This document shows positions 2,864-20,224 of a stretch of 20,819 nucleotides of DNA, one piece after another (within the stretch, counting starts at the first letter, position 1; the number at the start of each line of letters is the position of its first letter). The DNA lies in the IMG/VR virus record IMGVR_UViG_2526164688_000024. One strand, 5' to 3'. The position numbers were made by a program, and so were the translations under genes. Below the pieces are notes generated by a model. That model did no database searches. It saw nothing but the letters and a program-made list of their open reading frames with translations, and was not told the DNA's origin. This DNA is from a virus. Its lineage: Duplodnaviria > Heunggongvirae > Uroviricota > Caudoviricetes.

Positions 2864-4339
2864 CTACTGTCGTTTCGTTGCGGCACTGCTGCCTCCTTTA
2901 TCACTGGCCGGATCGGTATCAAATACCAGGTCCAGCTTGCGGTTTTCATCAATTTCGGCCTTGCGCCGACGTTTGACATCATCCGGATTACGACCACCTG
3001 CACGTACCCAGTCTGATTCTGTCGCCGCTCCACCACGAATCTGGATTTTCCAGGCCTCAGCCTCCTTAACAGGATCAATCCACGGCATCACCGGTCCGGA
3101 ATACACCGCGGTATACAGTGAAGAACGGTCAAGATCGCGGGGTAGCCTGATAACACCGGATGCCACAGCCTGTTTCAGCCAGGCACGATACATCGGGCGG
3201 GTGACGGCACCAATAAACCAGTCCTGCAGGATCAGGTAGCCATCAGTGGATTCAACCAGCTCCTGACGCTGGGCGCTGTAAGTGCCGTTATAGTTGCGCG
3301 CTGTACTGGAAAAACTCAGACGACTGCCCGCCGCCACGGCACGCAACTGACCATTACGAAAAGTTTCAAGGTTAGGATTGGGGCGATCCGACTTCACCAT
3401 TCCGATTTCTTCGCCGGGTTTCAGATCGTCGTAAATAATGCCCGGCTGAATGGTAAGCTCACGTTCATTCTCCTTTCTGCCATTACCATCCGGTTCATAC
3501 GCTCTGCCCGTCGCCTTTCCGGATGTACATCCCCAGAGCAGCGGCGATCCTGCTGCAGTCAGCTCAGAATCTTCATATTCTTTCAGGGCACTGAGGCGGA
3601 TCAGCACACCGGACAACAAAGACGTCCCGCGCATCTGGTGCAGACGGCGAACAAATTTAAGATGCAGCATTCGCTCTGCATCCACTTCTTTGGTTTCCAT
3701 CTGCCGTCCGGATACGGGACGGCTTTTATACACCAGATATTTTTCGGGACGCCCCCAGTCATCAACAAACACGCCCTGATTCAGCCTGTTGCTCTCATCA
3801 CTGGTCATGGGAATAAAGTCCGGCTCGAGCGCCTCCAGCCAGAAATGAACACCGGCAGAAGGCGCCAGGCTGTTTATGCGCCCGGAAACCATCTGGGCAA
3901 ACACCTCACCATCGCGCAGCCAGGTACGAAGCATCAGACGTTCCAGCATCGGACGGGTAAACTGCCCGGTGACTTCCGGGCTGACAGACCATTCACTCCA
4001 TCGGGTGCGAATCTCCGCAGCCAGGTCACGGGCAATGGCCCCATTGCGTAATACCGGATGTGGCTCGACAATAATCCCGTTTTTCCCCACCACCCGTTCT
4101 TCCAGCTTGTCAAATACACCAATAACCAGATCGTGGTTGTTATCAAGGTAACGGGCCTGCTCACGTAACGACACGGCCCCGTACTGGCTTAACTGGTCGG
4201 CAGTTCGGTTCTCCCGTCGGGCTTTGTGTGTCCGCGTCGTTTTTACGGCCTCATAAGCCTGGATCACCGCACGGGAACGCAGCCTTGCCGCTTTCCATCC
4301 TGGTGAAAAAACGCCAATCACATCATCAAGAATTGCCAT
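2864..4339 (-). CDS. Portal protein (lambda gpB-like position)
   Basis: ORF track 2864..4411; probable start ATG 4339..4337 (MAILDDVIG...) overlapping the stop of the upstream W-like gene in a TGATG junction; ~491 aa, located between gpW-like and protease-capsid genes as in lambda. Confidence 0.65.
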   Translation of the reverse strand: MAILDDVIGVFSPGWKAARLRSRAVIQAYEAVKTTRTHKARRENRTADQLSQYGAVSLREQARYLDNNHDLVIGVFDKLEERVVGKNGIIVEPHPVLRNGAIARDLAAEIRTRWSEWSVSPEVTGQFTRPMLERLMLRTWLRDGEVFAQMVSGRINSLAPSAGVHFWLEALEPDFIPMTSDESNRLNQGVFVDDWGRPEKYLVYKSRPVSGRQMETKEVDAERMLHLKFVRRLHQMRGTSLLSGVLIRLSALKEYEDSELTAAGSPLLWGCTSGKATGRAYEPDGNGRKENERELTIQPGIIYDDLKPGEEIGMVKSDRPNPNLETFRNGQLRAVAAGSRLSFSSTARNYNGTYSAQRQELVESTDGYLILQDWFIGAVTRPMYRAWLKQAVASGVIRLPRDLDRSSLYTAVYSGPVMPWIDPVKEAEAWKIQIRGGAATESDWVRAGGRNPDDVKRRRKAEIDENRKLDLVFDTDPASDKGGSSAATKRQ

Positions 4340-4551
4340 CAGAACCTCGCCAGCCGGTACCCGGGATGCCCACGTCGTCGTGTAATCAGAGCCGCAAGGC
4401 GGCGCTCCCACTCCTGCCGCCCCTGCCGGATCTCAGATAAGTTTTCCATGGTCATCTGCTGACCATTAAAAGTGACGGATTTTCCGTCCAGCACCGCCAT
4501 TTCAGCTTCCGTATAACGCTGAATCATGGCTTCGATATCATTCTGGTTCAT
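4339..4551 (-). CDS. Head completion protein, lambda gpW-like
   Basis: 70-aa ORF; ATG at 4551..4549 overlaps terL stop (ATGA) with GGAGG 6 nt upstream; C-terminus ...RRRGHPGYRLARF resembles lambda gpW C-terminus (...RRRGPAGFYV). Confidence 0.55.
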   Translation of the reverse strand: MNQNDIEAMIQRYTEAEMAVLDGKSVTFNGQQMTMENLSEIRQGRQEWERRLAALITRRRGHPGYRLARF

Positions 4552-6650
4552 AACCATCCTCCGGAAGTCAGCCAGGGGTTAACATCGTCAGTTACTGTTT
4601 TCTTCCGTTTTTGTTTTTTAACAGGCGTGGATACCGGTTCCGGTGAGGGTGACGGTTCGGTACTGTCCGGGACACACTCCAGCCAGGTCTCCCGGCTCGC
4701 CCACTCCGGTGCATCCGGCCAGCGGATCTTTTCGTATCCATGCAGAATGACCAGAGCCTCGGCATACACCATCAGGTCAAAAGCTTCGTTGGCACCGCGA
4801 CCCGGCTTACTCCATTTCCCGTCACTGCTCCGCTCTTCATACGTCAGTTCGTCGTAAAACCAGCTCCCCAGCCAGTCAGGGAAATGCACATAGCCGGGAC
4901 CTGGCGAGTCACGCCATAACGCGTTATTCACCCGGTCTTTCAGGGCATCCGTCTGAAGAAGCCAGAGCGGCACATCACCTGCGGCCTGCGCCCGGCGGCC
5001 CGTTCGTCCGGTGTTATCAGGGAATGTACGGCTGATCAGTTTTGCGCGCCGGATGCTGTCGCCCTTAAACAGGTAAATACGTTTACCAAGGCCATCACGA
5101 CGGCAACGACGCCAGAATTTATAGGCATTATCAGTGACCCCGTCTTCACCGCCGGAGTCCACCGCCATTGCCATCAGTCGCATTTGTTGAGAAGGATCGG
5201 AGGCCAGCGGCCAGCTTTTATGAAAAACATCCGTCAGCAGGACATCCCAGTCTTCCGGATAGCTGGCCGGATCAATTCGCTGGCTCTCCCCGTCGCAGTC
5301 ACTGCGGCAATGACTGCGTGATGTTGTAACGATCAATAATCCAGCGTTCGCCACGACTGCCATAGCCCGTCACCTGAACCACAAAACGGCGATGACGTCC
5401 CGCCTGCACATCCACTGTCGCCACAAGGAAATTAACGCCATCCGGCACACCGCGGGAAGGAACTGGCTCTGCCCGCTGCTCAAGCAGTTCACTTTTTCGT
5501 TGCTCCATGCTGGCACGAGGAAGATAAGGCAATCCCCAGTCGGTGTTGATAACCGCCCTGAGTGTTTCTTCGCTTCCTGTCGCTTCATACTCCTGTTCTG
5601 CAGTCAGTAATTTGTAAACCAGTTGCGCCCAGGTCTGATACGCAGCAGCTGGCCCTTCCATCCAGAAACTGGCGATACGGGAGCGGCGCGGTTCACCGGA
5701 AACGTTGCCGTTACGATCAATGACCTGACCTTCACGCAACCAGACTCCTGCACTATTGAGCTCACGCTTTTTCTCCGCAGTGATAATGCCGCTGCAGTGC
5801 GGGCAAAGTAGATACGCCGCCTCACTGGCTTTAAAGGGATCCGGTTCATTACGGTAGCCGGTCATGGCATCCATGGCTGGCTGAAAATATTCACCGCAGT
5901 GCGGACATGACCAGTACCAGCGGCGGCGGTCACCACGATTGTAAAGGGAAAGAATACCAGTCGTCGGTGGCGCTTCATGAGGCGACTTACGTCGCCATTT
6001 GCTGTCGCAGATGTCACGTCCCGGCGAGCTCTCCACCAGAGTCATCCCGGCGGACATAAATGTGGTGGTACGTTTTAAGAGGCCAGGGAGAAACCATCAC
6101 CCTCGCTGTCGATATTCTCCGGAAAACGGTCGTAATCGGTTAAGGCGACAAACCGGTAATCCGACGACGACATAATGTTGACCGAGGGCCAACCAATTTT
6201 AAGGAACGAGCCATCCCTGAACGTCTTATCATGGACATTATTGTCGTTACGACGTGGACTCATTCTTTTCTTTACCGCCGCACTGCTTCTGAACGTTCTG
6301 TCGAGGCGCTTTTTAGAATGCTCGCGGGCCTTATCTTCGGTCATCTGCACAACGAGCATGTCCGAAGGATCGCAAACGATGGTATAGACAATCCATCCAT
6401 CGATCAGACCAATGGTCTTCCCTGTTCGCGCAGGACCAACAAAAATCACCGCATCGTATTCACGCGATGCCAGGCAGTTCATGGGCTCAATGATGTAGGG
6501 TGTCAGTTCAGGATCCCATGGCACCGAGTTACCAGCCCCCTTGGGAACACGCATGAATTTTTTAACAGCCTCCGAAATCGGCATGCGACGTGGTGGGGAA
6601 AATCCTGCCGATATGTCCCTTCCCAAATTTCGGGCTGATGAAAAACCCAT
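4548..6650 (-). pseudogene. Terminase large subunit (lambda gpA-like), split into three reading frames
   Basis: Three consecutive minus-strand ORFs (6075..6650, 5299..6057, 4548..5363) in three different frames. Piece 1 has a Walker-A-like VIFVGPARTGKT; piece 2 has WYWSCPHCGEYF (cf. lambda A ...VACPHCGEEQYL); piece 3 has NEAFDLMVYAEAL (cf. lambda A NEALDCFVYALAAL). Frame breaks near 6057-6077 and 5299-5363. Confidence 0.65.
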
Positions 6651-6658
6651 TATTCCTC

Positions 6659-7185
6659 CTAGAGACTCTCTCCTTCCTCATCAGGAATTAATTCAGCAGC
6701 ACAAGCCTCGTAGGATTTTTCCTGAAGAGTGTATCGCAGGTCATCAATGGCCTGCTGTACAACGCCGACGGCCTGAGGAGTCAGGGCGCAATCGCGTTCA
6801 AGAACATCCGGAATTGTCTCCAGAACCTGGACGACAGCCTTTCTCATGGACGAATAGACGATGACTACTTCATCAACGGGGATGAGTTTTCGCTGCTCCT
6901 TTTCCAGCTTGATCCTTTCATTTTCAGACTGGTACCAGTCCTTTCTCTCTTTCGGCTCCATACGGGATGGATCATGAACAGAGTCTGCTGCCTCATGCTT
7001 CACACTAAACAGGGCTGGCCCGACATGCTGCAGGGCGTAAACGGGGTTCCCCTGACAGTCGCAGCCACAGGAGTGTTAGCCGCGAGGTAGCCGTTTTTTA
7101 CTGTGTCCCGGTGAAGCCCAAAGGCCTCAGCGATTTTAAAAACACTCCAGTAATAAGCATCACCGATCCCGCTCACATTTGACAT
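6659..7185 (-). pseudogene. Terminase small subunit (Nu1/NohA-like), frameshifted
   Basis: N-terminal ORF (start ATG 7185..7183 after GGAG; MSNVSGIGDAYYWSVFKIAEAFGLHRDTVKNG = winged-HTH like lambda Nu1) terminates at 7000; the C-terminal part continues in another frame (ORF 6659..7003). Frame switch maps to the GGGG/CCCC runs at ~7043..7052. Confidence 0.55.
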
Positions 7186-7369
7186 AAGCAACTCCATCTG
7201 GCAGGTGAAAATCATGTTTATTTATATATTTCAATTAATTGCAAACTGGTCTAATGACAGGGAGAAAGAAATATTGTACAGGTGAAAAGAGAAATAACTT
7301 TTAATTATCAATAAATTACCAAACATGCTGCCGCCGCCATGGAAATGCAAAAACTAGCCTTTTTCCGCG

Positions 7370-7381
7370 ACGCTCCCGCCC
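7370..7381 (-). other. cosN-like cohesive-end site (lambda-type), with putative cosB/IHF site between it and terS
   Basis: Minus strand reads ACGGGGCGGGAGCGTCGCGG, versus recalled lambda cos ACGGGGCGGCGACCTCGCGG (8/12 identical in the 12-nt core, both flanks identical); lies 155 nt upstream of terS start; IHF-consensus match TATCAATAAATTA at 7306..7318; GC-rich island in AT-rich surroundings. Confidence 0.5.
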
Positions 7382-7569
7382 CGTGGCAGGGGCCCCCACC
7401 GGGAGGACCCGACAGCCTGACAGCCTGACAGCCGTGATGAGCATCTGATACAGCGCTTTACATAATGGCATAGGAATAATTCAGAAGGACATCACAGCAT
7501 GCCCACACAAATTAGTGTGAGTGTCCTGTTTCTTCCTACGCACAGGACTGACGAGCATGAGGGGAAAAT

Positions 7570-7737
7570 ATGCGAACCATAAATGCCTCATCTTCAGCAA
7601 TGCAACCGGCATCCGAACAGGACGATATTGTAAATTCACCTAATTACGAGGACATTGCAGTAGTTGAATTGCAGCTCTGTATTAGCCTGACAGTGACAGA
7701 ATGCGATATTGACTCTGTCACAGGTGAAATAGTTTGA
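7570..7737 (+). CDS. Hypothetical small acidic protein (55 aa)
   Basis: ATG at 7570 preceded by GAGGGG (5-nt spacer); MRTINASSSAMQPASEQDDIVNSPNYEDIAVVELQLCISLTVTECDIDSVTGEIV; below the ORF-track size cutoff; no recognised homologue. Confidence 0.35.
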   Translation: MRTINASSSAMQPASEQDDIVNSPNYEDIAVVELQLCISLTVTECDIDSVTGEIV

Positions 7738-7757
7738 ATGATTAGCAGTTATGGTGC

Positions 7758-7964
7758 TCAGTCAACCACCAGGGAATAATCCTTCGAATTCTTATCGTGC
7801 TTCACCAACGCTGCCTCAATTGCCCTGAATGCTTCCAGAGACACCTGATGTTCTATACATGCAATTACAACATCCGGGTAACTCATAGAAATGGTGCTAT
7901 TAAGCATATTTTTTACACGAATCAGATCCAACGAGACTTCATCAGCAGATTGTTCTTTATTCAT
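7758..7964 (-). CDS. Hypothetical protein (68 aa), possibly the Qin ynfO-position gene
   Basis: ATG 7964..7962 with GGAG 7 nt upstream; convergent with the 55-aa ORF; occupies the slot between terS/cos and ydfO where K-12 Qin carries ynfO (identity not verified). Confidence 0.4.
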
Positions 7965-8264
7965 TTTGTCGCTCCATGCGTTTGCTCGTCATCTAGCGGT
8001 TAAAATATTACTTCAAATCTTACTGCATAAAAGAGGAAAAGTATGAAAGTTTGAGTACATCGACCTTACATACATCTGTCGGTTGCATATCCCTCCTGGA
8101 TGCCAGCAAGGCTCAATTTTGTTACGCAATCAACACTATTCATTAAAAACAGGCTTAATATTTGACATAAATCATCAACAAAACACAAAGAGGTCAGACC
8201 AGATTGAAACAATAAACACGATAATGCTAACTACGCGCCATCGTATCACATGGAAGGTTTACCA

Positions 8265-8675
8265 ATGGCTCAGGCTGCCATTTTTAAAGAAATATTCGAT
8301 CAAGTGCGTAAAGATTTAAACTGTGAATTATTTTATTCTGAGCTAAAACGTCACAATGTCTCACTTTATATTTACTATTTAGCCACAGATAATATTCACA
8401 TTGTGTTAGAAAACGACAACATAGTGTTATTAAAAGGACTCAAAAAGGTTGTAAATGTTAAATTCTCCAGAAACAAACATCTTATAGAGACCTCCTATAA
8501 TAAGTTGAAATCAAAAGAAATCACATTTCAACAATACAGGGAAAATCTTGCTAAAGCAGGAGTTTTCCGATGGGTTACAAATATCCAGGAACACCAAAGA
8601 TATTACTATGCCTTTGATAACTCATTACTATTTACTGAAAGCATCCAGAAAACTACACAGATCTTACCACGCTAA
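8265..8675 (+). CDS. ydfO: DUF1398-family prophage protein YdfO-like
   Basis: ORF track 8250..8675; preferred start ATG 8265 ([18 protein letters not shown]...) after GGAAGG; sequence and neighbourhood (gnsB, ynfN, cspI) match my recollection of K-12 Qin ydfO. Confidence 0.65.
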
Positions 8676-9465: not shown

Positions 9466-9673
9466 CTTCATTTTCACTTTTTTTAAATCCAACGACAGAC
9501 GGCTGGCATTTAAGTATTGTGAAATATTATCAAATGTAATCATCATTGATTTACAAAAGATACATTTTGCCCCGAAAGGATTCATGTCAGAAACATCAAA
9601 AGATGATGTTCTATACTGGGAACCATGACAACACGGGCATCTAAAGTGAATATGGTTTGTAATATTGTCTACC

Positions 9674-9886
9674 TCAAAGCGCCACTACATGAACAGCGGC
9701 AGGACCTTTAGGTCCGTTCTCAATACCAAATTCAACTTCCTGATTCTCAGTTAATGTTTTGAAATCGTTGCTCTGAATTGCTGAGAAATGGACAAACACA
9801 TCTTTGCTGCCATCTTTCGGCGTGATGAAACCAAAACCTTTTTCAGGGTTAAACCATTTCACTAAACCAGTCATTTTGTTAGACAT
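9674..9886 (-). CDS. cspI: Cold-shock protein CspI
   Basis: 70-aa [73 protein letters not shown], matches recalled CspI; RNP1/RNP2 cold-shock-domain motifs (KGFGFI, VFVHF); long AT-rich 5' leader upstream. Confidence 0.9.
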
Positions 9887-10248
9887 AATTATTACCTTTT
9901 GAAGAAATTAGCCCTTGGGCAGAATGGTCCGAAAAAAAATATCAGAGAGAAAAACCAACAAGGAAATCTCAAGAGGTACAAATAATAAAATTATAACAAT
10001 GACTGCTTCAGATAAATTTGTAACAAACCAGAACACCATTAACGCATGATTAACCACCCATAGCAAGGATTACTTTTGTAAAGAAAAACACAGCAATGAA
10101 AGAATAGCTTTATTTATTAATAAAACGTGTCATTCTGATTAAGACCTTTTATCTTACCCTTAAGATTTCAGGAATTTTGGCTCATGGAAGAGTCCTTTTT
10201 ATTTAAATTTTACATTCCGCGATGTAAATGTTCCGATTTAATATTACC

Positions 10249-12276: not shown

Positions 12277-12557
12277 GAGATTGTGGTGCTTTTTGTGGGA
12301 GTCATCCACTTACGCACTTTGTTTTGCGATGCCAGCAGTTAGCTTCTGCTGTGAAACTATTCATGCAGCAAACCTGCACTTCACCACAATGGTTAGCATA
12401 CTTTTCCTGATTAAGATTTTGCCAAATATGCTAGCCATTGTTTCATGTATTGGACCTCCTTACTTTTTATTAAAGAGATCCAATATTCACTACTCTGTCC
12501 GTATCTCTACTCAGGCATCAGCCTTCTTCGTTATCGTATACAGACGAGCGATGAATT

Positions 12558-12773
12558 TTAATCAGTAATGATGACATTTGCTGCTGCAGGACCTTTAGCA
12601 CCTCTCTCTATAGAGAAGGTAACCTTTTGACCTTCAAATAAGGTTCGATAATTATCATTCTGAATCGCAGAAAAATGCACAAACACATCTTTACTACCAT
12701 CAACAGGAGAAATAAAGCCGAAACCTTTATCAGCGTTAAACCATTTTACTAAACCAGTCATTTTATTTGACAT
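12558..12773 (-). CDS. cspB: Cold-shock protein CspB
   Basis: 71-aa [59 protein letters not shown]..., matches recalled CspB; 5' leader contains the csp 'upstream box' GCCGAAAGGC (minus strand, ~12790). Confidence 0.9.
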
Positions 12774-13071
12774 TCTACATTCCTTAACTTGAGCCTTTCG
12801 GCATAAATGGTTTGCATAACAGAAACGACTTCGTACTTAATTGGAGAGACTCAAAGAAGGAATAAGTGAATAACACCTGAAATGAGAACTGCTTTAGTAA
12901 ACTACTTCGTATATCGTCTGTTCTTCAAACCGACGCAGTCATTAACTCATAGTTGAACATATGAAGCAATGTTTATTTTAGACATCCAGCCACCTTCAAT
13001 CCTATCAAAAAAGTAGTTTTCTCCAGGAACGTGTGTATGGTGCACCAGGTTATCAGTATTAAGGAGTTTTT

Positions 13072-13312
13072 CTGTCCCCTAAAATGACAGGAATTGTCAA
13101 AAACTTTGACTACAAAAGCAGCAAAGGTCTTATATTCCCATCCGATGGCGTATCGATGCCCAGCTTCACGTTTCAGCTCTCAATCTTCGAGATGCAGAAG
13201 AAATTACCACAGGATTACGCGTGGAATTTTGCTGGATAAATGGTTCGCGTGGACCTTCAACTGCCAATGTTTATCCCGGGATGAGATTCAATATCTCTAT
13301 TGCCCCATTTAA
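13072..13312 (+). pseudogene. cspF: cspF remnant (start codon CTG, internal frameshift, no canonical stop)
   Basis: AAGGAG at 13061..13066 is followed 5 nt later by CTG TCC CCT AAA ATG ACA GGA ([26 protein letters not shown]; recalled CspF begins MSRKMTGIVK...); after ...SDG the CspF-like sequence continues in another frame ([42 protein letters not shown]) and runs on without the expected stop. Confidence 0.55.
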
Positions 13313-13313
13313 A

Positions 13314-13352
13314 GCACAAAAACCCGCTTATAAGCGGGTTTTCTACTTTTTT
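13314..13352. terminator. Bidirectional rho-independent terminator (candidate tR' of the late operon and cspF terminator)
   Basis: Perfect 20-bp palindrome AACCCGCTTA|TAAGCGGGTT (13321..13340) flanked by AAAAA upstream and TTCTACTTTTTTC downstream. Confidence 0.6.
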
Positions 13353-13374
13353 CTAAACGTCGGATACACAAAGC

Positions 13375-13417
13375 CCATCGTTGAGAAAATCTTATCCATA
13401 TTTTTTGAAAAATGCAA
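13375..13417 (-). promoter_or_regulatory. Candidate late promoter PR' with sigma70-dependent pause element, just downstream of Q
   Basis: Minus strand: -35 TTGCAT (13417..13412), 17-nt spacer, -10 TAAGAT (13394..13389), then AACGAT (13380..13375) at about +2..+7, the same -10-like pause-inducing hexamer I recall for lambda PR'; terminator hairpin follows within ~60 nt. Confidence 0.5.
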
Positions 13418-13448
13418 ACATCATGTCGCCATCTTCAGCAAAAATCAT

Positions 13449-14201
13449 TTATCTCGTCACCTTCCTCAATTGCGCTTCCGCGTATGCTTCTTCCTGCCAG
13501 CACTTTGTTACCAGTTTACCAATGACGTCCGCATACCCCTTATACCACTGATAATCGGTCAGGTCTGGTACCAGCTTCTGGACATGACGTCGTGCCAGCG
13601 TGGTCGGTAAACGACTAAACCGGTTTCCATTACAACGCCCACAAATCTTATATACCGGTACGCCATGAAACCGGGTTCTTTTTTCATCCAGAACAATCCC
13701 TTTACCCTTACACCCTCTGCACGCTGTGCTGACTTCGCCCTTACCATGGCAATGCTGACATAGTTCCTTCACCCATTCTTCCTTGATTACAGATTCCCCG
13801 CGTCTGTAGTGTTTCACCACTTCGCGCAATACATTATAAAATCCCGTACCTGAACAATGCTCACAGCGAGCCTTACTTGCCGCAGACCTGGAGTAATCAG
13901 CAAAGGCAAAATTCACGAGGTAAGGAATAATCTGTAACCGGATTTCTTCACTCAATTTGTTCAATGTCGGGTTATCCAGTGCCATCGCGTAATTTAGCAG
14001 GCCTTCAATCGCAAACTGAGCGTCCTGAACACCAACTTTTGCCAGAAATAAGGCCAACCCAAGTGGTGCTTTCGACTGCACCATCCCCTGCGCTGCCATT
14101 ACATCCGTAATTGTTAAACAACCGGTGCCTGTCGCTGGAGCGTCATCGCTCAATTTTGGAGATTTTGGGGAGTAATATTTTGGTAAGGCTTCAAGGTTCA
14201 T
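13449..14201 (-). CDS. quuQ: Late-gene antiterminator Q (phage 82/21-type, Zn-finger)
   Basis: ORF track 13449..14231; start ATG 14201..14199 after GGAGAA gives 250 aa ([16 protein letters not shown]...); multiple CxxC pairs ([30 protein letters not shown]); position immediately upstream of late promoter/lysis genes. Confidence 0.75.
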
Positions 14202-18059: not shown

Positions 18060-19560
18060 AAATGAACACCAGAAACGCGACTTAAGAATCTACCCTATGA
18101 ATGGATATGCACTCAACCGAATCGATCTTGGTTTCAATCTTTTTTATCGGGATCAGGCTTCTTTTTAGGTAACTTCGGGGGCTTAACTTGCTGATGACTT
18201 TGCGTTCGGCGCGTAAGCCAGGGATGGTCAGCTTTAGGTTTAACATAGTATTTTGAGCGTAAATCAATACGGGCATTATCCACTCGTTCATGGACACTCT
18301 TTTCATCATCCAGTGGTATAGGCTCCGGGCCATCAACATACTTTTCCCAGCCCAGCGCTTTCCCGTCATACAGAACGTTAATTTCACCGTCAAAGTTCTC
18401 GCATACAGTAACAACCGAATGCCTAAGTCGATATCCCCGGCCCTCACTGCGTACCTGAAACGCACTGCTTTTGTACTGGAAAGTGAGATTTTTAGACAGA
18501 ACGCGCTTCGCCTGTAGGCTGAAGATATAACCCAGTTCCTCTTCAGAATGGTGCACATCAAGATGAGCATTATCAGTAGTACGAGGCGACGTAGCGAACC
18601 GGTTGTTATAGGCTTCAATAAAGGTCGGCAACCATGCATTTGCTGTTTCAATATCACTGATATTCTGAAGCCGCATTTCTTTGACCAGCCTGTCCTGTAG
18701 TGTCTGATTGGCGCGCTCTACCCGCCCTTTTGCCTGCGGGCTGTTGGCATGGATTGGCTCGATGCCCAGTGTCTTTATCGCACGAGTGAACTGGGTCAGC
18801 TCACCTTCCCGCTCTGGGTTATTTACCCTGAATATACTGTGTCTATCAGAGTAGAGAGCGAGCGGTACGCCATGATCATTAAGGTAACCCCGGAGGGTTT
18901 CCATGTAAGCCCGGGTTGTTTCAGCAGGCACAAAACGCAACGCCATCAACGCACTGGTGGCATCATCAATGAAAACGATCAGTGTACATCTGGGGCCTCG
19001 ATTTTCAAACCAGTCATGAGGTGAGCCATCAATCTGGATCAGTTCACCGTAAGATGGTCGTCGCATGCGGCGTTGATATATACGGGCAATTTTACGACGG
19101 CGTTCACGCCATAACCCCTCTTCTATCATCCACTTTCTGAGAGTTTCAACGGATAAAGATAAACCGTGTATCTCACGCAATTTTTCGCACGCAAACGTAG
19201 GTCCAAAATCAGCGTAACGGCCTTTGAGGAGTGAAATTACTGTTGCTCTGAATTCAGTAGAAAAGGAATTATTAGGACGCTTTCCACGTCGGGGGGAAAC
19301 CAGACCAGAAGGCCCTTCATTTCTATACCGTTGCACCAGACGTTTAACCTGCCGAATAGAAATGCCAATGCGTGCCGCAGCTTGTTCCTGAGTAATATGT
19401 CGATTAATTGACTCCTGAATAATCTGAAGTCGGTGGAGTTCCTTATGACTCATCGTAACAGTCTCTTTGATCATGAAAAATCCCCCAGAGAATTGTCTGG
19501 GGACATTTTAGAATGGTTCAAAGGGGACATTACAGCTTGGTGTTAACAATAGCCTGCTTC
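18060..19560 (-). mobile_element. Insertion sequence carrying the IS481-like transposase (boundaries approximate)
   Basis: Single transposase ORF inserted ~400 bp after the flxA terminator where K-12 Qin has intK/dicCA; I could not identify terminal inverted repeats by eye, so ends are estimated only. Confidence 0.35.
18134..19474 (-). CDS. DDE transposase with N-terminal HTH and integrase-core (rve) domain, IS481-family-like
   Basis: 446-aa ORF; N-terminal HTH region (EQAAARIGISIRQVKRLVQRY), catalytic-core motifs IQIDGSPHDWF ... LYSDRHSIF ... SPQAKGRVERANQTLQDRL consistent with a D,D(35)E integrase fold. Family assignment is tentative. Confidence 0.75.
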   Translation of the reverse strand: MIKETVTMSHKELHRLQIIQESINRHITQEQAAARIGISIRQVKRLVQRYRNEGPSGLVSPRRGKRPNNSFSTEFRATVISLLKGRYADFGPTFACEKLREIHGLSLSVETLRKWMIEEGLWRERRRKIARIYQRRMRRPSYGELIQIDGSPHDWFENRGPRCTLIVFIDDATSALMALRFVPAETTRAYMETLRGYLNDHGVPLALYSDRHSIFRVNNPEREGELTQFTRAIKTLGIEPIHANSPQAKGRVERANQTLQDRLVKEMRLQNISDIETANAWLPTFIEAYNNRFATSPRTTDNAHLDVHHSEEELGYIFSLQAKRVLSKNLTFQYKSSAFQVRSEGRGYRLRHSVVTVCENFDGEINVLYDGKALGWEKYVDGPEPIPLDDEKSVHERVDNARIDLRSKYYVKPKADHPWLTRRTQSHQQVKPPKLPKKKPDPDKKD

Positions 19561-20224
19561 TCCTTGCCTTTCGGCACGTAAGAGGCTAACCTACATATGT
19601 CTAGCATGAAATTGGCCTCAGATTAATGTTAAGCGTCTTGCAGGACGCGTAATGTTAACTGGGGCTTTTCTCTATCTGCCGTTGGTGTTCATGCCCGAGG
19701 CAGATAGCCTCAAGCACCCGCAGCCATTCTACTTAACTACCGTTACCTCGCCAATGTGAAATCAGTCAGAAAGGCGATCCATAAGAACAATAGCAAGACA
19801 ATAAATCGCCATTACAGCCGTAATAGCCAGCGCACATTTGAGAACCAGCACCACAACCTCCTGTATTGGACGTAGACCAGTCCTGATGAATATGAGGCTG
19901 TCTCGTCAGTGATTCAATACAACTATTGGGTATAGTTTCTCTGATTTTTTCTGTGGAAATGGGGCACAACCACTAGTCACCACCAGCACTTCTTTTAATA
20001 CGCAAAGTCCGACACAAGCTAACCTTCTAGTCCGCTTTGAGCGAAAAACAGCCATAATTTAGTGCCACGTATATAATGATAGAGCTATTCAAGCTAGCAA
20101 TTCACATGTAAAAATTCAGAGGGTAGAAGCACATAGTTATAAATGTTGGCTCCATCGACAAATTGCGGTCTCAAGTACATTTATTAATGTTGCCCCCGCA
20201 TTAACAAATCATCAAGGTGACGAC

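What the first reader, a model, noticed from the sequence alone, without database searches (positions are those of the whole stretch)
7570..7964. Two convergent small ORFs of unknown function in the moron slot next to cos
A 55-aa acidic ORF (plus strand, strong GAGGGG SD) and a 68-aa ORF (minus strand, GGAG SD) face each other immediately next to cos. In lambdoid phages this slot between the lysis genes and the genome end typically carries accessory cargo. I recognise neither protein, and the pair is small enough to be a toxin-antitoxin-like or anti-defence module. TGACAG-containing repeats occur in and around the 55-aa ORF (7417-7436, 7687-7720).
Basis: inference. Interest (0 to 1): 0.45.

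Follow-up and report, generated by a model that had tools for sequence, protein, structure and literature searches.

The report
ybcW gene plus a chance ORF
One of the two small ORFs is the already catalogued, uncharacterised lambdoid-phage gene ybcW, and the other is most likely a chance reading frame over ybcW's downstream spacer, so the pair is not a toxin-antitoxin or anti-defence module.

Summary

**68-aa ORF (7758-7964, minus strand).** This is YbcW: 91% identical to K-12 DLP12 YbcW and to lambda lambdap79, with a full-length match to phrog_657. It is not YnfO. It is intact in every lineage examined, and its core survives in homologues of 40-54% identity.

**55-aa ORF (7570-7737, plus strand).** This shows no sign of being a gene.
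- It straddles a mosaic joint at 7611/7612.
- Its ATG is ACG in other lineages.
- Relatives carry 1-nt and 7-nt indels.
- Substitutions fit neutral drift: 5 synonymous and 12 nonsynonymous in one comparison, 4 and 12 in the other.
- The conserved TGACAG DNA is read in a different frame in lambda.
- PGAP does not annotate it, and an ORF of this length is expected by chance.

**TGACAG motifs.** These are two unrelated things:
- an 8-bp variable-number repeat next to cosQ;
- an inverted repeat with invariant arms (GTGACAGA-N13-TCTGTCAC) in the ybcW 3' spacer.

In lambda and DLP12 the convergent partner of ybcW is ylcI (DUF3950), which is absent here.

Verdict: an ordinary, already known accessory gene plus a spurious ORF. 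Interest is low.

The parts
7758..7964 (-). ybcW-family gene (68 aa). It lies on the same strand as the late operon and is the last ORF before cosQ.
   Evidence: It matches phrog_657 over its full length, E 6.8e-47, and is 91% identical to K-12 YbcW. It corresponds to lambda lambdap79. PGAP annotates it as WP_001031435.1. It is intact without indels in all lineages, and distant homologues keep the core.
7570..7737 (+). 55-aa acidic ORF, most likely a chance reading frame and not a gene.
   Evidence: It matches only phrog_4035 and 41 near-identical clusters. PGAP and the Tritos record leave it unannotated. Relatives lose the start codon, carry frameshifts and switch frame. Substitutions are neutral. 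No plus-strand promoter is found. The AF2 model has pLDDT 60 and pTM 0.16. An ORF of this length is expected by chance.
7612..7757 (.). Spacer downstream of ybcW that is shared with lambda and DLP12. The mosaic joint with the cos/terminase module lies at 7611/7612.
   Evidence: Matches to lambda and DLP12 start at query position 313, which is window 7612. In DLP12 this stretch is the intergenic space between the stops of ylcI and ybcW.
7693..7721 (.). Inverted repeat GTGACAGA-N13-TCTGTCAC, 37-65 nt past the ybcW stop.
   Evidence: It is unique in the window. Both arms are invariant in all lineages, while the loop and flanks vary and the loop is 12 or 13 nt. The RNA hairpin has an energy of -14.6 kcal/mol, z = -3.9, on the ybcW strand. 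No U-tract follows it.
7410..7433 (.). 8-bp tandem repeat GACAGCCT, three copies here, abutting cosQ.
   Evidence: Found as a tandem repeat in the window. The copy number is 1 to 5 among related loci.
7404..7410 (-). cosQ-like heptamer GGGTCCT.
   Evidence: It is the only occurrence in the window. It lies 23-29 nt from cosN, against 24-30 nt in lambda. The same pattern lies downstream of ybcW in nearly all loci that extend far enough. That this heptamer is cosQ is from memory.
7370..7381 (-). cosN cohesive-end sequence (reverse complement GGGCGGGAGCGT).
   Evidence: It coincides with the two termini of the linear genome record of phage Tritos. It lies about 190-200 bp upstream of the terS start, as in lambda.
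6659..7215 (-). DUF1441 small terminase subunit gene, frameshifted in this window.
   Evidence: Pfam DUF1441, E 9e-33. The window has indels at 7049, 7088 and 7094 relative to the intact gene of O26:H11 11368.
8188..8204 (-). PdhR box in the divergent ybcW / DUF1398 promoter region.
   Evidence: It is an exact match to the K-12 ybcV-ybcW PdhR site ATCTGGTCTGACCTCTT (PMC7660256).
8250..8675 (+). ydfO/ybcV homologue (DUF1398), transcribed divergently from ybcW.
   Evidence: Pfam DUF1398, E 2e-43. This is the same neighbour as in lambda, DLP12 and Tritos.

Best explanation
The interval is the right-end accessory segment of a Qin-like lambdoid prophage of E. coli.

**ybcW.** The 68-aa ORF is a real gene of the YbcW family. 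The protein is predicted to be a small three-helix bundle of unknown function.
- Shown in K-12: ybcW shares a PdhR-activated divergent promoter region with the DUF1398 gene. The identical PdhR box is present in this window.
- Inferred: in the lytic cycle ybcW is also read as the last gene of the late transcript before cos.

**The spacer.** Downstream of ybcW lies a roughly 150-bp spacer shared with lambda and DLP12. It holds an inverted repeat with invariant arms. Most likely (inferred) this forms a 3' stem-loop on the ybcW mRNA, and on the opposing ylcI mRNA in lambda and DLP12. This fits the convergent overlapping transcription reported for ybcW-ylcI in K-12.

**The 55-aa ORF.** In this lineage the lambda-type ylcI/cos/Nu1 module has been replaced by a cos/DUF1441-terminase module, with the joint at 7611/7612. 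The 55-aa ORF is a chance reading frame: 14 codons of the new module are fused to an open frame that runs across the old spacer and its hairpin. It is not a conserved gene, and the two ORFs are not a functional pair.
For: **Identity of the 68-aa ORF**
- Family and homology.
- It is intact, with conserved start and stop and no indels, in three lineages that differ by 10-25 nt. dN/dS is about 0.4 against the most distant lineage.
- The core YPDVVxACIxxxVSxExFxAIEAxL is kept at 40-54% identity.
- The AF2 model has pLDDT 73 and is helical.
- The PdhR box is identical. In K-12 a pdhR deletion lowers ybcW and ybcV mRNA 9- to 10-fold (PMC7660256).
- ybcW-ylcI is listed as a convergent excludon, a pair with overlapping transcription (PMC12288877).

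**The 55-aa ORF is not a gene**
- Homology with lambda and DLP12 starts at 7612, inside the ORF.
- ATG 7570 is ACG in the HannyBb / mEp460 / E. ruysiae lineage and in the variant seen on 838 contigs. That variant uses another ATG and another frame for its first 17 residues.
- Single-base indels occur at 7579 and 7652, at 7679 and 7706, and at 7690. A 7-nt deletion spans 7605-7612.
- The frame is cut to 34 aa in the phages HannyBb and mEp460 and has no ATG in lambda or DLP12.
- Between the two lambda indels the conserved CCTGACAGTGACAGA is translated in a different frame.
- Substitutions by codon position are 3/7/7. Counts are 5 synonymous to 12 nonsynonymous in one comparison and 4 to 12 in the other, against about 23% synonymous sites.
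- Only 41 related protein clusters, almost all near-identical, turned up in a search of a 5.8-billion-sequence database.
- No plus-strand promoter-like site was found.
- The length is within chance expectation.
- The AF2 model has pLDDT 60 and pTM 0.16.

**Inverted repeat**.
Against: - The exact 55-aa sequence is intact on at least 1,000 contigs. It has a reasonable SD and ATG, and non-PGAP pipelines and PHROGs list it as a protein.
- Two different variants both keep an ORF through the C-terminal 38 residues.
- There is no expression data for this strain, so translation is not excluded.
- The selection signal on ybcW itself is modest: dN/dS is 0.7-1.0 between the two closest lineages, on only 10-11 changes.
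- The inverted-repeat arms never vary, so there is no covariation to show an RNA structure over a DNA site. No U-tract follows the hairpin, and no 3' ends near ybcW or ylcI appear in the one Term-seq supplement I could search.
Confidence: 0.8

Rival explanations
1. The 55-aa ORF is a young, lineage-restricted gene born at the mosaic joint. It would encode an acidic micro-protein translated from a plus-strand transcript antisense to the late operon, for example a DNA mimic or anti-defence factor.
For: - It has an SD-like GAGGGG with good spacing and an ATG.
- The product is strongly acidic.
- It is intact on at least 1,000 contigs of one common prophage type.
- A second variant restores an ORF over the same C-terminal part through a different start.
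- PHROGs has a full-length family for it.
Against: - Intactness among near-identical copies carries no information.
- As soon as sequences diverge by about 10%, the start is lost and the frame is broken.
- Substitutions are neutral.
- The part of the sequence that is conserved is conserved as DNA and read in different frames.
- No promoter was found, and there is no match in Pfam, NCBIfam or PADLOC.
- The structure prediction has low confidence.
Confidence: 0.1
2. The two convergent ORFs are a toxin-antitoxin-like or anti-defence pair.
For: Both are small and adjacent in a moron slot. In lambda and DLP12 the convergent partner of ybcW is YlcI, whose sequence looks to me like a ribbon-helix-helix protein, a fold common among antitoxins. 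That reading is my own and was not tested.
Against: - The genes are convergent and do not form an operon.
- The partner is not conserved: it is ylcI in lambda and DLP12, a chance ORF here, and absent in the satellite-like loci.
- ybcW occurs without any partner.
- There are no toxin, antitoxin or defence model matches.
Confidence: 0.03
3. The invariant inverted repeat is a DNA site for a dimeric protein, either a host or phage regulator or a packaging-related factor, and is not an RNA stem-loop.
For: The two 8-bp arms are invariant across lineages while the 12-13-nt spacer varies in sequence. No terminator-type U-tract follows. The site lies a few hundred bp from cos.
Against: - It matched none of the regulator consensus sequences I know (CRP, LexA, Fur), compared by eye.
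- The spacer length changes between 12 and 13 nt, which is awkward for a rigid dimer site.
- The satellite-like locus has a different, ordinary hairpin at the same place after its ybcW homologue. That favours a transcript 3' structure.
Confidence: 0.1

Closest known systems
YbcW of E. coli K-12 prophage DLP12, and lambda ORF lambdap79 (47738-47944); phrog_657
   Same: The protein is 91% identical over all 68 residues. It sits in the same position between the DUF1398 gene and cos, has the same orientation relative to the late operon, and has the same PdhR box upstream.
   Different: Six residues differ, at the N-terminus and near the C-terminus. The module downstream is a DUF1441-terminase cos region instead of ylcI-cos-Nu1. 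The function is unknown in all of them.
YlcI/YnfO (DUF3950), the small ORF convergent with ybcW in lambda and DLP12 and next to nohA in K-12 Qin
   Same: It occupies the same place and strand as the 55-aa ORF, between ybcW (or ydfO) and cos.
   Different: It has no sequence similarity to either ORF of the window. The ylcI segment is replaced here by unrelated DNA to the left of 7612.
Lambda cos (cosQ-cosN-cosB upstream of the small terminase gene)
   Same: The 12-nt GC-rich cohesive-end sequence is similar to lambda's. GGGTCCT lies about 23-30 nt upstream of the cut, and the terS start lies about 190-200 bp beyond it.
   Different: Three of the 12 cohesive-end positions differ. The small subunit is of DUF1441 type, not Nu1. 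An 8-bp variable-number repeat abuts cosQ.
phrog_4035 (unknown function)
   Same: The 55-aa ORF matches this profile over its full length, E 1.2e-41.
   Different: The family rests on gene predictions from near-identical prophage copies. The comparative evidence here argues that it is not a gene.

Membership tests
YbcW family (phrog_657; K-12 b0559-type) | Full-length sequence match to the family profile and to K-12 YbcW | tested here: met
   phrog_657 matches residues 1-68 of 68, E 6.8e-47. BLASTP gives 62/68 identical, E 2e-45.
YbcW family (phrog_657; K-12 b0559-type) | Position in lambdoid genomes: after the lysis and accessory genes, on the late strand, as the last ORF before cosQ/cosN | tested here: met
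   This arrangement is seen in lambda, DLP12, Tritos, HannyBb, mEp460 and 80 IMG/VR loci. The GGGTCCT...GGG pattern lies downstream of ybcW in nearly all loci that extend far enough.
YbcW family (phrog_657; K-12 b0559-type) | Reading frame kept under divergence | tested here: met
   There are no indels and the start and stop are kept. dN/dS is about 0.4 against the H lineage. The core is kept at 40-54% identity.
YlcI/YnfO (Pfam DUF3950) | Match to DUF3950 or to K-12 YnfO | tested here: not met
   Neither ORF hits DUF3950 at E <= 1. BLASTP against YnfO gives no alignment.
Type II toxin-antitoxin module | Two co-directional, co-transcribed genes | tested here: not met
   The ORFs are convergent, with stops 20 bp apart.
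Type II toxin-antitoxin module | Conserved co-occurrence of the two partners | tested here: not met
   The 55-aa ORF is broken or lacks a start in the H and lambda lineages, whereas ybcW is intact. ybcW has other partners or none.
Type II toxin-antitoxin module | Recognisable toxin or antitoxin domain | tested here: not met
   Pfam, NCBIfam and PADLOC give only sub-threshold noise. PDB sequence and fold searches are uninformative.
Type II toxin-antitoxin module | Toxicity of one product, rescued by the other | not testable with these tools
   This needs cloning and induction.
Anti-phage defence or anti-defence protein | Match to a known defence model (PADLOC); anti-defence function | tested here: not met
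   PADLOC gives no hit for the 55-aa ORF, and E 0.023 (12 bits) for the 68-aa ORF. No anti-defence library was available, and function was not testable.
Protein-coding gene (55-aa ORF, phrog_4035) | Frame, start and stop conserved; excess of synonymous change | tested here: not met
   The start is lost and frameshifts and frame switching occur. Counts are 5 synonymous to 12 nonsynonymous and 4 to 12. Substitutions by codon position are 3/7/7.
Intrinsic (Rho-independent) terminator | GC-rich hairpin followed by a U-tract | tested here: not met
   The hairpin is present, but no T-run follows it on either strand. The scan finds 0 terminators in 7200-8300.
Known RNA family (Rfam) | Covariance-model match in 7200-8300 | tested here: not met
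   There is no hit at gathering score. The only hit is a chance-level one, E 2.3.
Lambda-type cos site | 12-nt cohesive-end sequence at mature genome termini, a cosQ heptamer about 25 nt upstream, and terS about 190 bp downstream | tested here: met
   The Tritos record termini map to 7381/7382. GGGTCCT lies at 7404-7410. The lambda sequences of cosN and cosQ are recalled from memory.

The most novel reading that the evidence does not exclude
YbcW is a cos-proximal factor and not a random moron. It is the last late-strand ORF before cosQ in Nu1-type and DUF1441-type lambdoid phages. A 40%-identical homologue sits in the same place in a satellite-like element that carries capsid E, decoration protein D and Nu1 genes but little else (L126, L127). 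YbcW, perhaps together with the invariant inverted repeat after it, might therefore act in packaging or in competition for packaging. Alternatively, the 55-aa ORF could be a newborn acidic micro-protein gene.
Probability: 0.08. Interest if true: 0.5.

Novelty: already known. Interest (0 to 1): 0.13.

Why it matters
It matters little. The result removes a candidate toxin-antitoxin or anti-defence pair. It shows that one member is the long-annotated but uncharacterised ybcW, and that the other is probably an annotation artefact that some pipelines and PHROGs carry as a protein.

Three points are of modest use:
- It is a clear example of a spurious ORF made by a mosaic joint laid over a conserved hairpin.
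- It maps cosN and cosQ, and an 8-bp variable repeat, for the DUF1441-terminase phage type.
- It notes that ybcW keeps its place just before cos even in a satellite-like element, which gives a starting point for anyone who wants to find its function.

Tried and rejected
Rejected. ynfO is DUF3950, lies on the other strand and has no similarity.
- **Breadth of the YbcW family.**
  - The 2,205 clusters and 164 representatives are mostly error-laden copies of lambda control DNA on roughly 3.5-kb contigs.
  - Only P0200 and P0305 looked like real distant homologues.
  - A scan of viral contigs with those two found nothing.
  - The genome scan mostly returned lambda contamination in unrelated 'genomes'.
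- **Small RNA.** Rfam found nothing in the interval.
- **Terminator or promoter.** None was found on the plus strand. One weak promoter-like site lies on the minus strand at 7765-7738, fewer than the shuffles give on average.
- **Overall RNA structure of the spacer.** It is not unusual, z = -0.4 and -1.3. Only the local hairpin stands out.
- **Link between the TGACAG tandem at 7410-7433 and the inverted repeat at 7693-7721.** Rejected as a repeat family. The two lie in different mosaic modules, and the shared 10-mer is within chance.
- **Within-lineage polymorphism test.** It gave too few sites to use.
- **Literature.** The Term-seq supplement has no ybcW or ylcI entry. The lambda ribosome-profiling paper is not held. 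A search for lambda Ribo-seq found nothing useful.

Full report
**Where the window comes from.** Positions 7300-8250 are 100% identical to a Qin-like lambdoid prophage of E. coli O26:H11 str. 11368 and of many other strains.
- The RefSeq annotation of that prophage shows the late operon running on the minus strand of the window. It contains the holin, lysozyme and Rz-like genes, then cspI, ynfQ/R/N and gnsB.
- Next comes a DUF1398 gene (ydfO/ybcV type) on the opposite strand, then a 68-aa 'hypothetical protein' (WP_001031435.1).
- After an unannotated gap come a DUF1441 small terminase, the large terminase, the portal and the remaining head genes.
The 55-aa ORF is not annotated by PGAP.

**Check of the observation.**
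- Both ORFs, their SD-like motifs and their convergent layout are as described.
- The 55-aa product has 10 acidic and 1 basic residue.
- The motif AGCCTGACAG occurs twice in tandem at 7414-7431 and once at 7684. GTGACAGA/TCTGTCAC forms an inverted repeat at 7693-7721.
- cos is nearby.
  - The linear genome record of phage Tritos, 99.3% identical over this region, ends at window 7382 and begins at 7381.
  - The 12 bases at 7370-7381 read GGGCGGGAGCGT on the late strand. From memory, this is close to lambda's cohesive end GGGCGGCGACCT.
  - GGGTCCT, lambda's cosQ heptamer as I recall it, occurs once in the window at 7404-7410. That is 23-29 nt from the cut, against 24-30 nt in lambda.
  - The terS start is about 190-200 bp further on, as in lambda.
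- A 55-aa ATG-ORF is not unusual. Shuffles of the 1,034-bp stretch between terS and ydfO contain at least one in 57% of trials.

**The 68-aa ORF is YbcW.**
- It matches phrog_657 end to end, E 6.8e-47.
- It is 62/68 identical to YbcW of the K-12 prophage DLP12.
- It has the same relation to lambda ORF lambdap79, 47738-47944. Tritos annotates it as YbcW.
- It has no similarity to K-12 YnfO, which is a DUF3950 protein on the other strand.
- Among 127 fetched loci the gene falls into three lineages: window type, lambda/DLP12 type, and the HannyBb / mEp460 / E. ruysiae type. It is intact in all real copies, with no indels.
- dN/dS is about 0.4 against the most distant lineage and 0.7-1.0 between the two closest, on 10-11 changes only.
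- Two real distant homologues, of 54% and 40% identity, keep the core YPDVVxACIxxxVSxExFxAIEAxL.
- The large hit counts are inflated by error-laden copies of lambda control DNA.
- AlphaFold gives a small helical bundle with pLDDT 73. Fold searches return only generic three-helix bundles, and the PDB sequence search returns nothing. The function stays unknown.
- In K-12 a PdhR site lies between ybcV and ybcW, and a pdhR deletion lowers both mRNAs 9- to 10-fold (PMC7660256). The identical 17-mer is at window 8188-8204.
- ybcW-ylcI is listed among convergent pairs with overlapping transcription (PMC12288877).

**The 55-aa ORF is most likely not a gene.**
- A search of a 5.8-billion-sequence database found only 41 related clusters, almost all above 90% identical. 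It does match a PHROG, phrog_4035, which shows only that gene callers have predicted it before.
- Homology with lambda and DLP12 starts at window 7612, which is codon 15 of the ORF.
  - To the left, lambda and DLP12 carry ylcI (DUF3950), whose stop lies 19 bp before the joint.
  - The window instead carries unrelated DNA that travels with the DUF1441-terminase cos module.
  - The ORF therefore straddles a mosaic joint. Its last 42 codons lie over what is intergenic spacer in DLP12.
- In relatives the frame does not hold.
  - The ATG is ACG in the HannyBb / mEp460 / E. ruysiae lineage.
  - It is also ACG in a common E. coli variant (838 contigs). That variant uses a different ATG and a different frame for its first 17 residues, then rejoins the frame through a 7-nt deletion.
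  - Single-base indels lie at 7579 and 7652 (H lineage), at 7679 and 7706 (lambda lineage) and at 7690 (L038).
  - The result is a 34-aa stump in the phages HannyBb and mEp460, 43 aa in L038, and an open frame with no ATG in lambda and DLP12.
- Between the two lambda indels, the conserved DNA CCTGACAGTGACAGA is read as P-D-S-D-R in lambda and as S-L-T-V-T-E in the window. What is conserved is the nucleic acid, not the protein.
- Substitutions fall 3/7/7 on codon positions.
  - Window against the H lineage gives 5 synonymous and 12 nonsynonymous changes, including loss of the start and of the stop.
  - Window against lambda gives 4 and 12. About 23% of sites are synonymous, so this is neutral.
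- No plus-strand promoter-like site is found upstream.
- A single-sequence AlphaFold model has low confidence, pLDDT 60 and pTM 0.16.
- Against this stand the SD and ATG and the intact state on at least 1,000 near-identical contigs. The latter carries no information about selection.

**The TGACAG motifs are two different things.**
- The first is an 8-bp tandem repeat, GACAGCCT, directly abutting cosQ. It has three copies here and 1 to 5 copies among related loci. It is a variable-number repeat.
- The second is the inverted repeat GTGACAGA-N13-TCTGTCAC at 7693-7721.
  - Its two arms are identical in every lineage, while the loop (12 or 13 nt, five sequence variants) and the flanks change.
  - As RNA on the ybcW strand it folds at -14.6 kcal/mol, z = -3.9.
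  - No U-tract follows it and no terminator is called. The wider spacer is not unusually structured. Rfam has nothing here.
  - Because the arms never vary, there is no covariation, and an RNA stem-loop cannot be told from a DNA palindrome.
  - I favour a transcript 3' stem-loop, for two reasons. The repeat sits between two convergent genes in lambda and DLP12. The satellite-like locus has an ordinary hairpin at the same place after its ybcW homologue.
- The 10-mer shared by the two motifs lies in different mosaic modules and is within chance.

**The pair as a module.**
- The ancestral convergent partner of ybcW in lambda and DLP12 is ylcI, not the 55-aa ORF.
- In the H lineage the DUF1398 neighbour is missing as well.
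- In the satellite-like loci ybcW is followed directly by cos and Nu1.
- Neither product matches any toxin, antitoxin or defence model.
- The toxin-antitoxin or anti-defence reading therefore has no support.

**What stays constant.** ybcW is always the last late-strand ORF before cosQ. The distance from its stop is about 350 nt in the window type, about 530 nt in the lambda type and 47 nt in the satellite-like type. This is the only lead to its function, and it is weak.

**Verdict.** The 68-aa ORF is a known, uncharacterised gene family, present in K-12 and in lambda itself. The 55-aa ORF is best explained as a spurious frame over a mosaic joint and a conserved hairpin. Nothing here is new in kind, and interest is low.

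Noticed in passing
window 3500-7094: Relative to the intact prophage of O26:H11 11368, the window carries frame-breaking indels. They lie in the small terminase (7049, 7088, 7094), the large terminase (5306, 6077-6078) and the portal region (3500, 3551). The terminase genes appear as several short ORFs. The prophage in the source strain looks defective for packaging, unless the assembly has indel errors.
   Followed up: partly
window 7410-7433: The 8-bp tandem repeat GACAGCCT directly next to the cosQ heptamer varies from 1 to 5 copies among related prophages and phages. Whether copy number affects packaging termination is unknown.
   Followed up: partly
L003 200-394 (lambda 48109-48303, complement): Phage lambda carries an intact 64-aa ORF identical to K-12 YlcI (DUF3950). 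It lies between lambdap79 and cos and is not annotated in NC_001416. Its sequence looks to me like a ribbon-helix-helix protein; this was not tested.
   Followed up: partly
L126 and L127, 1-3860: A 40%-identical YbcW homologue lies in a compact element. The gene order is DUF927 primase-like, PerC, a 68-aa ORF, capsid protein E, decoration protein D, the YbcW-like gene, a hairpin, GGGTCCT plus a cosN-like sequence, then Nu1. It looks like a phage satellite that brings its own lambda-type capsid and small terminase genes.
   Followed up: partly
L088-L123 (genome-contig hits) and P0068-P0161: Lambda DNA turns up as contamination in assemblies labelled Veillonella, Pseudomonas, Streptomyces-like, Cohnella, Flavobacterium and others. 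Thousands of roughly 3.5-kb ENA contigs carry error-laden copies of the lambda right end, probably sequencing control DNA. These inflate the apparent size and diversity of the YbcW family.
   Followed up: partly
window 8188-8204: An exact copy of the PdhR box reported between ybcV and ybcW in K-12 lies between the ybcW homologue and ydfO. This suggests pyruvate-responsive expression of both in the lysogen (PMC7660256).
   Followed up: partly
window 9647-10032, 12542-12934, 19548-19719: Rfam finds two cspA-type thermoregulator leaders (upstream of cspI and cspB) and a Sok antitoxin RNA next to hokD.
   Followed up: no
window 13000-13500 and about 13273: This stretch holds 46 of the differences from O26 11368. 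The O26 prophage also has about 258 bp more than the window at window position 13273.
   Followed up: no
L124 and L125, 240-464: The other distant YbcW homologue (P0200, 54% identity) sits in a different setting, near genes with DUF7828/Zn-ribbon and REP_ORF2-G2P hits. No GGGTCCT...GGG (cosQ-type) pattern was found in either locus.
   Followed up: no
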